Source: Escherichia phage EP75. From it: a DNA stretch of 64,000 nucleotides. Under the pieces are notes generated by a model that was given only the letters and a program-made list of their open reading frames with translations, had not been told where the DNA came from and did not search any database. The position numbers were made by a program, and so were the translations under genes. This document shows positions 17,900-18,349 of the stretch, in pieces (position 1 is the first letter of the stretch; the number at the start of each line of letters is the position of its first letter). The stretch lies in the sequence record MG748547; one strand, written 5' to 3'.

Positions 17900-18349
17900 T
17901 TAGGCTTCTCTGTTTGCCAGCCCTGGTTTGAATACCACCATTTCTTCTACGTTATTGGCGCTCATAGAGGCTATGGAATCGAATCCTTTATTGATAAGTT
18001 CCTTCACATTATCGTGAATCTTACCAGGTTCTATTCCCAACTCATGCATTTTGTTTTCCCAAACAGAAACGTTATTAGAATCTATTACCAGAGTCTTCTT
18101 GGCTTTAACACGAAATGCCATGACAACAGGTTCACCAGATTGGCGATAGCGAACGGCATTTTCCGCGTAGATCTGCGCTTTTTCTGGATCCCCTGTCAGG
18201 TAAAATCCAGCACCCATCGTACCAGAGTCAGTCTGGCCAAATTTTTCAAAATCAAAGACGTCGAATTCAACATTCGACCCATGATATAAAACAATATCCG
18301 TAAAATCGGGCAATGTTGATTCACGATAGAATTCTAGGAAGGTTTTCAT
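17900..18349 (-). CDS. small protein with PARP-like H-Y-E signature; candidate ADP-ribosyltransferase
   Basis: LYHGS ... GAGFYLT ... EEMVVF spacing resembles the H-G-S / aromatic / Glu triad of diphtheria-toxin/PARP-type ARTs; motif recognition only. Confidence 0.3.
   Translation of the reverse strand: MKTFLEFYRESTLPDFTDIVLYHGSNVEFDVFDFEKFGQTDSGTMGAGFYLTGDPEKAQIYAENAVRYRQSGEPVVMAFRVKAKKTLVIDSNNVSVWENKMHELGIEPGKIHDNVKELINKGFDSIASMSANNVEEMVVFKPGLANREA

What the first reader, a model, noticed from the sequence alone, without database searches (positions are those of the whole stretch)
17900..18349. Small PARP-like (H-Y-E) putative ADP-ribosyltransferase
The 149-aa protein contains LYHGS, then about 25 residues later GAGFYLT, and a C-terminal EEMVVF. 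That order and spacing mirror the His / aromatic / Glu catalytic triad of diphtheria-toxin and PARP-type ADP-ribosyltransferases in a minimal scaffold. Phage ARTs are used for host takeover or anti-defence, and this one lies in an early region between unknown genes.
Basis: inference. Interest (0 to 1): 0.65.

Follow-up and report, generated by a model that had tools for sequence, protein, structure and literature searches.

The report
Virion-associated PARP-like ADP-ribosyltransferase of ViI-like phage
A small late gene of a ViI-like Salmonella phage encodes a PARP/diphtheria-toxin-type ADP-ribosyltransferase that is found in virions, so it is probably delivered with the DNA to modify host molecules; the enzyme family was already recognised by databases and its activity and target are untested.

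Summary
The ORF is real: window 17900-18349, minus strand, 149 aa. The window is a Kuttervirus (ViI-like, Ackermannviridae) genome.

Its context claim is wrong:
- The gene is not early. It carries the Ackermannviridae late-promoter motif CTAAATACCCC 23 nt upstream.
- The upstream neighbour is known: it is ViI gp226, the PLP decarboxylase of thymidine hypermodification.
- The ART product and the product of the downstream gene were detected by mass spectrometry in virions of LIMEstone1 and Sajous1.

The N-terminus MKTFLEFYRE resembles the T4 IPIII capsid-targeting sequence MKTYQEFIAE.

Best reading: a head-packaged, injected ART that is functionally analogous to T4 Alt but from a different ART clade. 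Activity, target and injection are untested. UniProt already labels orthologues ART-PolyVal-like, so this is a member of a known kind and of moderate interest.

The parts
17900..18349 (-). CDS of the 149-aa ART-PolyVal-type ADP-ribosyltransferase. Predicted catalytic residues and their codons: H23 (18281-18283), Y50 (18200-18202), Y61 (18167-18169), E136 (17942-17944). The conserved D124 (17978-17980) lies in the strand before the catalytic one.
18320..18349 (-). Codons 1-10, MKTFLEFYRE. This is a conserved, predicted-disordered N-terminal leader that resembles the T4 IPIII/IPII capsid-targeting sequence MKTYQEFIAE. Its role as a head-targeting propeptide is inferred, not shown.
   Evidence: M1, K2, T3 and F4 are invariant and L5 nearly so. 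Residues 1-11 have pLDDT below 50. The T4 sequence comes from PMC8442874 and residue roles from PMC9026906. It is the best match among ORFs of a whole Kuttervirus genome, with 0.009 expected per genome. Counter-evidence: it aligns with an internal element of polyvalent proteins.
18372..18382 (-). Late-promoter-like motif CTAAATACCCC, 23 nt upstream of the ART start codon.
   Evidence: The window holds 5 matches against 0.05 expected; the other sites precede the acidic neighbour and three tail fibre/tailspike-region genes. The motif is named a regulatory motif of these phages in PMC7283392. The same position is annotated as a late promoter in LIMEstone1.
18352..18378 (-). 5'-leader hairpin with an 11-bp stem. 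Its 5' arm overlaps the promoter motif and its 3' arm GUGGGGUAU ends 5 nt before the AUG. It may control mRNA stability or translation; no function has been tested.
   Evidence: Predicted energy is -16.6 kcal/mol, z -3.95, and 0 of 200 shuffles fold as well. Similar hairpins occur at two tail fibre/tailspike genes and in the LIMEstone1 orthologue, which has a different loop.
17406..17864 (-). Downstream 152-aa very acidic protein (pI 4.05), on the same strand in the same late unit and also a virion protein. It is a possible partner, escort or inhibitor of the ART, but this is speculative.
   Evidence: ORF. Composition. Conserved adjacency. It gave 31 spectra in Sajous1 virions and 1 peptide in LIMEstone1. 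No family or convincing fold match was found.
17893..17903 (-). Second late-promoter-like motif, CTAAATATCCC. It overlaps the ART stop codon and lies 29 nt upstream of the acidic gene.
17380..17406 (-). Intrinsic terminator (11-bp stem followed by a T run) that ends the ART-plus-acidic-protein late unit.
   Evidence: No terminator-like site was found in the 39-nt gap between the PLP gene and the ART gene; the terminator-like matches elsewhere lie inside the coding sequences or at this terminator.
57974..58642 (+). T4 gp21-type prohead protease (Peptidase_S77). In the proposed model it would remove the N-terminal leader. The link to the ART is inferred.
   Evidence: Pfam 98.9 bits. T4-type scaffold (58689-59525) and the Gp23 capsid protein (59617-60939) lie next to it.

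Best explanation
The gene encodes a stand-alone, catalytically competent mono-domain ADP-ribosyltransferase. It belongs to the H-Y-E clade, family ART-PolyVal.

By analogy with PARPs and diphtheria toxin, the active site would work as follows. H23, in the HGS motif, and the loop around G46-G48 would hold NAD+. Y50 and Y61 would sandwich the nicotinamide. E136 would stabilise the oxocarbenium intermediate and activate the acceptor.

The gene is transcribed late from its own CTAAATACCCC promoter, together with the acidic downstream gene. The protein is incorporated into virions. This probably happens in the head, through an N-terminal leader resembling the T4 IPIII capsid-targeting sequence, which the gp21-type prohead protease may clip after E10. 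The protein would then be ejected with the DNA and ADP-ribosylate host target(s) in the first minutes of the next infection.

This would make it a functional analogue of T4 Alt built on a different ART clade.

Shown computationally or by published proteomics: the family, the fold, the conserved triad, the late-promoter motif and the virion detection. Inferred: enzymatic activity, head location, leader function, injection, and the nature of the target.
For: Family and fold:
- Pfam ART-PolyVal scores 42.3 bits against a cut-off of 31.2.
- A profile of the orthologues retrieves 1329 proteins. Most of the top hits are giant multi-domain proteins of 1000-7000 aa, many matching the profile in several stretches.
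- The AF2 model has pLDDT 82.
- The BFVD search returns ART-PolyVal, MuF-fusion and vRNAP proteins.

Catalytic residues:
- They are invariant.
- The family profile aligns '...GYDg...kEvvvF' onto PARP4 'GYDSV...DDEFVVY' and tankyrase-1 'GHHSVIG...YAEYVIY'. The E in each is the catalytic Glu listed in PMC7955679.

Late expression:
- The motif occurs 5 times against 0.05 expected. The sites lie upstream of this gene, the acidic gene and three tail fibre/tailspike-region genes.
- The equivalent site is annotated as a late promoter in LIMEstone1.
- A distant homologue also has a TAAATAACCC element after a terminator.

Virion association:
- LIMEstone1 ORF173 was confirmed by MS (PMC3296691).
- Sajous1 gp116 gave 10 spectra and its neighbour gp115 gave 31 spectra in CsCl-purified virions (PMC10892097).
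- The LIMEstone1 paper states that all its unknown structural proteins have structural counterparts in ViI.

Leader:
- It shares 6 of 10 residues with the T4 capsid-targeting sequence, plus a Y4F change at a targeting position.
- 0.009 such matches are expected per genome, and this is the best of all ORFs.
- A second protein with the leader MKPFIEYFKE, Sajous1 gp215, gave 32 spectra in virions.
- A T4-type protease, scaffold and capsid protein are present in the window.

General precedent: Iyer et al. predicted that ARTs of this family are packaged and delivered early (PMC5512222 and PMC9503650).
Against: - No biochemical data exist for any ART-PolyVal member that I could find.
- The virion MS evidence is thin: 1 peptide in LIMEstone1 and 10 spectra in Sajous1. 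The Sajous1 preparation also contained non-structural proteins such as RegB at 31 spectra, and its authors warn of contamination.
- The leader's aromatic pattern, F4..F7-Y8, aligns with the 'EFxxWFxxSKVVD' element that precedes internal ART copies in polyvalent proteins. Its conservation may therefore be intrinsic to the family, and the resemblance to the T4 targeting sequence may be a coincidence.
- Several orthologues lack Glu at position 10.
- No terminator separates the upstream PLP gene from the ART gene, so earlier read-through transcription is possible.
- I could not retrieve peptide-level data to test N-terminal processing, because the stored supplement is truncated.
Confidence: 0.55

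Rival explanations
1. The protein is an active ART that works inside the producing cell late in infection, for example by modifying host or phage proteins during assembly. It is not functionally delivered, and its presence in virion preparations is carry-over.
For: MS counts are low, and clearly non-structural proteins were also detected in the same Sajous1 preparation. LIMEstone1 also reported rIIB, ligase and PhoH at low coverage. The leader may be a family-intrinsic element.
Against: Independent preparations from two genera detected it, and counterparts are stated to be structural in ViI. It is co-detected with its co-transcribed neighbour. It belongs to a domain family typical of packaged polyvalent, MuF and vRNAP proteins. 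The top fold hit is a pre-ejectosome protein.
Confidence: 0.2
2. The enzyme acts on nucleic acid rather than protein, possibly in connection with the adjacent thymidine-hypermodification gene. It might, for example, ADP-ribosylate DNA or RNA in the manner of DarT, pierisin or ScARP.
For: It lies immediately next to ViI gp226, the O-serinyl-thymidine decarboxylase. The ART-PLP adjacency persists in a divergent contig where the order is reversed to ART then PLP. ARTs of the H-Y-E clade include DNA modifiers (general knowledge).
Confidence: 0.08
3. The protein is chiefly an NAD+ glycohydrolase. It would deplete or reshape the host NAD+ pool, or counter NAD+-dependent defences, rather than transfer ADP-ribose to a macromolecule.
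For: NAD+ hydrolysis is the default side reaction of the ART fold, and some ART-fold toxins are dedicated NADases (PMC9503650). No target-recognition domain is present in this 149-aa protein.
Against: The full PARP-like H-Y-Y-E set is typical of transferases. The Ackermannviridae-specific invariant patch S91-N92-N93, S95, W97 lies in the region between strands 4 and 5. By position this patch resembles an acceptor-recognition loop, but that is an inference.
Confidence: 0.1
4. The protein is a catalytically dead ART-fold protein that serves only a structural or scaffolding role in the virion.
Against: Every catalytic position is intact and invariant across genera, while the surrounding sequence diverges to 60% identity. 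Pseudo-PARPs typically lose H, Y or E (table in PMC7955679).
Confidence: 0.05

Closest known systems
ART-PolyVal (Pfam PF18760): the ART domain of phage and conjugative-element polyvalent proteins, called N4-ART or the Tox-ART-HYD2 clade by Iyer et al. 2017
   Same: Significant sequence membership above the Pfam cut-off. A reciprocal profile search returns polyvalent proteins. It shares the conserved YHG[ST], G.G[FI]Y[FL]T, Y-A, GYD[GS] and E-[VF]-V-x-F motifs. The family is predicted to be virion-packaged and to act early.
   Different: This protein is a stand-alone 149-aa domain rather than one module of a 1000-7000-aa protein. It has an N-terminal MKTF.EF leader. Iyer et al. describe the active site as H-Y-D, whereas here the residue that aligns with the PARP catalytic Glu is E136, and D124 sits one strand earlier.
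Eukaryotic PARP catalytic domains (PARP15, PARP10, PARP4, tankyrases) and diphtheria toxin or exotoxin A
   Different: It has no regulatory or target-binding domains and no PARP helical domain. The region between strands 4 and 5 carries two helices not aligned to PARPs. Sequence similarity is only marginal, with the best PDB E-value at 5.5e-4. Whether it makes mono- or poly-ADP-ribose is unknown.
Bacteriophage T4 Alt, a head-packaged, injected ADP-ribosyltransferase
   Same: A proposed functional analogy. Both are late-made, virion-associated ARTs in phages with T4-type head assembly (gp21 protease, gp22 scaffold, gp23 capsid). Both have an N-terminal propeptide-like leader.
   Different: Alt belongs to the R-S-E clade, whereas this protein is H-Y-E. 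Alt is about 70 kDa and this protein is 17 kDa. Packaging, processing, injection and an RNA polymerase target are demonstrated for Alt and untested here.
T4 internal proteins IPII and IPIII with the capsid-targeting sequence MKTYQEFIAE
   Same: The first ten residues MKTFLEFYRE share M1, K2, T3, E6, F7 and E10. They keep an aromatic residue at targeting position 4 and a hydrophobic residue at processing position 8.
   Different: The mature part is an acidic enzyme (pI 5.0), not a basic DNA-associated internal protein. The leader could instead be homologous to an internal element of polyvalent ART modules. No processing data exist.
AcrIF11, an anti-CRISPR ADP-ribosyltransferase
   Different: The structural score is lower than for PARPs or diphtheria toxin. 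No sequence relationship was detected. AcrIF11 is not known to me to be virion-packaged (own knowledge).

Membership tests
ADP-ribosyltransferase superfamily, H-Y-[EDQ] clade | Split beta-sheet ART fold | tested here: met
   [not shown]
ADP-ribosyltransferase superfamily, H-Y-[EDQ] clade | His on strand 1, in the [YF]-H-G-[ST] motif | tested here: met
   H23 lies in LYHGS on strand 19-25. It is invariant in orthologues and kept in 296 of 297 distant copies. It aligns to LFHGS/T of PARP12 and tankyrase.
ADP-ribosyltransferase superfamily, H-Y-[EDQ] clade | Tyr on strand 2, plus a second Tyr about 10 residues later that stacks on the nicotinamide | tested here: met
   Y50 in GFYLT lies on strand 49-52, and Y61 lies in the following helix. 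They align to GIYFA and ...Y of tankyrase and PARP4.
ADP-ribosyltransferase superfamily, H-Y-[EDQ] clade | Acidic or Gln residue at the start of the catalytic strand | tested here: met
   E136 aligns to the catalytic Glu of PARP4 (DDE) and tankyrase-1 (YAE). It is invariant in orthologues and kept in 46 of 54 distant copies.
ADP-ribosyltransferase superfamily, H-Y-[EDQ] clade | NAD+-dependent ADP-ribosyl transfer | not testable with these tools
   This needs biochemistry.
Pfam ART-PolyVal (PF18760) | Score above the curated gathering threshold over most of the model | tested here: met
   42.3 bits against 31.2. Residues 19-142 match model positions 7-127 of 140. The precomputed Pfam assignments and the UniRef name agree.
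Pfam ART-PolyVal (PF18760) | Occurrence as a module of a large polyvalent protein | tested here: not met
   The protein is a 149-aa single domain. Only one copy exists in the genome. This is a typical context rather than a requirement of the Pfam family, which also contains solo proteins.
Pfam DUF3990 (PF13151) | Score above the gathering threshold | tested here: inconclusive
   32.7 bits against 32.2, covering only residues 20-89. This is an overlapping family of the same clan, and ART-PolyVal is the better match.
T4 Alt-type packaged ART (functional class) | R-S-E active site with Alt/VIP2 homology | tested here: not met
   The active site is H-Y-E. Only ART-PolyVal and DUF3990 were detected by Pfam.
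T4 Alt-type packaged ART (functional class) | Late synthesis and presence in purified virions | tested here: met
   It has the late-promoter motif. Published MS detected it in LIMEstone1 and Sajous1 virions. Abundance is low and contamination is not excluded.
T4 Alt-type packaged ART (functional class) | Ejection into the host and modification of host proteins | not testable with these tools
   This needs infection experiments.
T4 IP-type capsid-targeting sequence | An N-terminal leader of about 10 residues, with targeting residues at positions 4 and 7 and processing residues at 8 and 10 (Glu) | tested here: inconclusive
   The sequence pattern is met: F4, F7, Y8 and E10, with 6 of 10 residues identical. 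However, the same aromatic pattern occurs in internal polyvalent modules. E10 is not universal in orthologues. Cleavage is untested.
DarT / Tpt1 (KptA) | Family-specific sequence signature and closest fold match | tested here: not met
   [not shown]

The most novel reading that the evidence does not exclude
The ART is functionally tied to the neighbouring thymidine-hypermodification enzyme and acts on nucleic acid. For example, it might ADP-ribosylate DNA, conceivably at the primary amine of 5-(2-aminoethoxy)methyl-dU, or host DNA or RNA on entry. That would explain why the ART and the gp226-type PLP decarboxylase stay adjacent even when their order is reversed in a divergent lineage.

A less radical but more likely novel element is that the MK[TSP]F.E[FY]..E leader is a portable T4-IPIII-like head-targeting tag in Ackermannviridae. 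I put the probability of that at about 0.35.
Probability: 0.06. Interest if true: 0.8.

Novelty: new member of a known kind. Interest (0 to 1): 0.35.

Why it matters
ViI-like phages (Ackermannviridae) are widely used as biocontrol and therapy candidates, yet half their genes are unannotated.

If this protein is an injected H-Y-E ADP-ribosyltransferase, it would be a compact and tractable model for the large, uncharacterised ART-PolyVal family, for which I found no biochemical study. It would be a second, independently evolved example of the T4 Alt strategy of delivering an ART with the DNA. It could also act on host transcription, translation or defence.

The leader, if it is a capsid-targeting tag, would also give a handle for packaging foreign proteins into these phages.

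The domain assignment is not new. UniProt already names orthologues ART-PolyVal-like, and one GenBank record says 'ADP-ribose transferase'.

Tried and rejected
- A single-sequence search of PDB sequences found nothing. Only the family profile reached PARPs.
- I considered D124 as the catalytic acid, because Iyer et al. describe this family as H-Y-D. I rejected it because the profile alignment puts E136 on the PARP4 and tankyrase catalytic Glu, and D124 on the preceding 'YDS/HHS' strand.
- I looked for a second ART-PolyVal copy in the genome, prompted by a 225-aa ART-PolyVal-like protein of Dickeya phage JA11 in BFVD. There is none in the window or in phage bering.
- The 225-aa ORF at 19784-20461 is not an ART.
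- Contexts of distant solo homologues gave little. P0026 sits on a 637-bp contig and was uninformative. P0021 turned out to be a divergent Ackermannviridae-like contig.
- I tried to find N-terminal peptides in the Sajous1 MS supplement to test cleavage after E10. Nothing was found because the stored file is truncated.
- NCBIfam had no hits.
- PADLOC gave only partial N-terminal matches to candidate defence proteins PDC-M13A/B, M42A and M10A. These reflect the shared ART N-terminal half, not membership of a defence system.
- tblastn with distant solo homologues found, among cultured phages, almost only Ackermannviridae; the few others include a Microbacterium phage MuF-fusion protein and an unclassified Caudoviricetes contig.

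Full report
**What is there**

The ORF at 17900-18349 lies on the minus strand and encodes 149 aa, starting MKTFLEFYRESTLPDFTDIVLYHGS. No earlier in-frame start is possible, because the stop-to-stop frame begins at 18388.
- LYHGS at residues 21-25;
- GAGFYLT at residues 46-52;
- EEMVVF at residues 135-140.

The window is 99% identical to Salmonella phages Se-H and Se-J, and 95-97% identical to phage bering and Vi01. It is therefore a Kuttervirus of the Ackermannviridae.

**Family and fold**

Pfam places the protein in ART-PolyVal (PF18760) at E 1.6e-10, 42.3 bits against a gathering score of 31.2. It is marginally also in DUF3990, a family of the same clan. PHROGs lists it as an unknown-function family.

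Close homologues of 149-156 aa all carry the same precomputed Pfam assignments. One cluster is named 'ART-PolyVal-like domain-containing protein' by UniRef.

A profile of 21 orthologues, searched against 1.84 billion representatives, found 1329 proteins. The strongest non-orthologous hits are giant proteins of 1000-7300 aa, many matching the profile in several stretches. These are the polyvalent proteins from which the family was defined (PMC5512222).

- PARP10, PARP13, PARP4, tankyrases and the RES toxins MbcT and ParT;

**Catalytic residues**

In the orthologues, H23, G24, S25, Y50, Y61, D124 and E136 are invariant, while E135 varies (H, R, V). The counts for about 300 distant domain copies are given in the observation check.

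Iyer et al. describe this family as H-Y-D, so I tested which acidic residue is the canonical one. A 34-sequence family profile searched against PDB sequences hits almost only PARPs, diphtheria toxin and exotoxin A, with a best E-value of 5.5e-4.

The printed alignments show the following correspondences:
- the family motif 'GYDg...kEvvvF' aligns with PARP4 'GYDSV...DDEFVVY' and tankyrase-1 'GHHSVIG...YAEYVIY';
- 'lYHGt' aligns with 'LFHGS/T';
- 'GkGfYlt...AkeY' aligns with 'GAGIYFA...SNQY'.

The E of 'DDE' and 'YAE' is the third catalytic residue in the table of PMC7955679. So E136 is the PARP-type catalytic Glu, Y61 is the second nicotinamide-stacking Tyr, and D124 lies on the preceding strand.

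**Context and timing: not early, and the neighbours are not unknown**

Upstream on the same strand, at 18389-19714, is the orthologue of ViI gp226 (YP_004327553). That protein has been shown biochemically to be the PLP-dependent decarboxylase that converts O-serinyl-thymidine to 5-(2-aminoethoxy)methyl-dU (PMC8989533).

Downstream, at 17406-17864, is a 152-aa protein with pI 4.05. It is followed by a strong terminator at 17380-17406.

The motif CTAAATAYCCC occurs five times in the window against 0.05 expected. The sites are:
- 23 nt upstream of the ART ATG;
- 29 nt upstream of the acidic gene;
- upstream of three large structural genes of the tail fibre/tailspike region at 29780, 32901 and 35125.

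The motif is cited as a regulatory motif characteristic of these phages (PMC7283392). The LIMEstone1 record annotates the TAAATA inside it as a late promoter in front of both orthologues. The PLP gene has no such motif. A 48%-identical solo homologue on a metagenomic contig also has a terminator followed by TAAATAACCC just upstream.

**Virion association**

- LIMEstone1 ORF173, which is 62% identical, and its neighbour ORF174 are 'confirmed structural proteins' by ESI-MS/MS. Each is supported by only one peptide, at about 12% coverage.
- In CsCl-purified Sajous1 virions, gp116 (the ART, 96% identical) gave 10 spectra and gp115 (the acidic neighbour) gave 31.
- The LIMEstone1 paper states that all its unknown structural proteins have structural counterparts in ViI. 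In the Vi01 record both genes are labelled 'phage associated protein'.

There is a caveat. The Sajous1 sample also contained RegB, ParB-like and ssDNA-binding proteins, and the authors warn about carry-over.

**A possible head-targeting leader**

Residues 1-11 are predicted to be disordered, and Pfam's match starts only at residue 19. Even so, M1, K2, T3 and F4 are invariant and L5 is nearly so.

The first ten residues, MKTFLEFYRE, resemble the T4 IPII/IPIII capsid-targeting sequence MKTYQEFIAE (PMC8442874). Six residues are identical, and position 4 has a Y-to-F change. In T4, positions 4 and 7 govern targeting, and positions 8 and 10 govern cleavage by gp21 (PMC9026906).

The chance of five or more matches in nine positions is 4e-5 per protein, or 0.009 per genome. 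Across the whole bering genome this ORF is the best match.

Two other proteins in that genome begin with MK[TSP]F.[ED][FY]..[ED], where 1e-4 are expected; note that this pattern was defined after the fact. One of them is Sajous1 gp215, which starts MKPFIEYFKE. It gave 32 spectra in virions and has CTAAATAC upstream. The other is a 73-aa protein with no late motif.

Solo homologues from metagenomes begin MKTFEQFLKE, MKTFLEYITE and MLTFEAYLAE. The window also encodes a gp21-type protease, a gp22-type scaffold and a gp23-type capsid protein.

Against this reading:
- MAFFT aligns the leader's F4..F7-Y8..S11 with the 'EFxxWFxxSKVVD' element that precedes internal ART modules of polyvalent proteins, so the conservation may be intrinsic to the family.
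- E10 is missing in some orthologues.

I rate the leader-as-targeting-tag idea at about 0.35-0.4.

**Mechanism proposed**

The following is inferred from the PARP and diphtheria-toxin paradigm and the T4 Alt precedent. The protein is made late and incorporated into the virion, probably into the head core through the leader. It enters the next host cell with the DNA and uses NAD+ to ADP-ribosylate one or more host targets.

Neither the target nor the choice between mono- and poly-modification can be inferred. An Ackermannviridae-specific invariant patch (S91, N92, N93, S95, W97, M101, N114) lies between strands 4 and 5. That is where ARTs usually recognise acceptors, so it is the best candidate for a specificity determinant.

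The rival explanations are action only within the producing cell, a nucleic-acid target linked to the hypermodification gene, an NADase, and a dead structural protein. Each is set out with evidence in its own section. None is favoured by the data, but none is excluded without biochemistry.

**Novelty**

The family, its H-Y-E-type fold and the idea that its members are packaged early effectors were all published. UniProt names orthologues accordingly, and one GenBank record, phage STP-4, already says 'ADP-ribose transferase'. Most other records say hypothetical or structural protein. A few carry labels the evidence here does not support: N-acetyltransferase, GIY-YIG and DarB-like.

I found no paper that characterises any ART-PolyVal enzyme or discusses this gene.

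This analysis adds four things:
- the residue-level assignment of E136 rather than D124 as the catalytic acid;
- the late promoter and leader hairpin;
- the link between the ART prediction and existing virion proteomics;
- the T4-targeting-sequence-like leader, shared with a second virion protein.

The result is a new, well-supported member of a known kind. It is a good experimental entry point but not a surprise.

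Noticed in passing
window 18352-18378 (-); 29740-29774 (+); 32865-32896 (+); L004:3973-3997: The late-promoter motif CTAAATACCCC is also the 5' arm of a strong leader hairpin. Its 3' arm GGGGTAT ends a few nt before the AUG. Predicted energies are -16.6 to -17.8 kcal/mol, z -4 to -5.6, and 0 of 200 shuffles fold as well. It is present at the ART gene and at two tail fibre/tailspike genes, and is conserved in LIMEstone1 with a different loop. These genes lack an obvious Shine-Dalgarno sequence outside the hairpin. It may be a late-mRNA stability or translation element.
   Followed up: partly
[not shown]
   Followed up: partly
window 18389-19714 (-); L009:5251-7116: The upstream gene is the orthologue of ViI gp226, the proven PLP decarboxylase of 5-NeOmdU synthesis. 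Several GenBank records call it 'threonine ammonia lyase'. In a divergent Ackermannviridae-like metagenomic contig, the ART (49% identical) and the PLP enzyme (70% identical) are still adjacent but in the opposite order, and the acidic protein lies two genes further on.
   Followed up: partly
L007:34854-35399 (phage bering gene 88) and L012:7080-7649 (Sajous1 gp215); L008:36708-36929 (bering gene 166): Two further Kuttervirus proteins outside the window start with a T4-targeting-sequence-like leader. One is a protein of 181-189 aa starting MKPFIEYFKE. It gave 32 spectra in Sajous1 virions, has CTAAATAC upstream and has no Pfam domain. The other is a 73-aa protein starting MKSFQDFLED, with no late motif.
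   Followed up: partly
[not shown]
   Followed up: no
window 17900-18349 orthologues in GenBank: Annotation of this gene is inconsistent across records. Labels include hypothetical protein, (putative) structural protein, putative N-acetyltransferase (Guerrero, Gloob), GIY-YIG catalytic domain protein (sal1), DarB-like antirestriction protein (phi1_146021) and ADP-ribose transferase (STP-4).
   Followed up: yes
window 19784-20461 (-): A basic 225-aa protein (pI 9.1) upstream of the PLP gene is annotated 'ETC complex I subunit' in phage Guerrero. It has only a sub-threshold NDUS4 hit, E 3e-4 at 21 bits against a cut-off of 31.9, and is otherwise unknown.
   Followed up: no
P0172 (Vi01 copy of the acidic protein), alignment A3 columns 41-62: The Vi01 reference sequence of the acidic neighbour has a garbled stretch, MHRYRARMCPRCR-SPCNVLRRR, where all other orthologues agree. 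This looks like a pair of compensating frameshifts in that record.
   Followed up: no
window 17900-18349, residues 20-85: PADLOC models of candidate defence proteins PDC-M13A/B, PDC-M42A and PDC-M10A match the N-terminal half of the ART, with a best E-value of 2.4e-9. This indicates that related ART domains (DUF3990-like by my inference) occur in candidate bacterial anti-phage systems.
   Followed up: no
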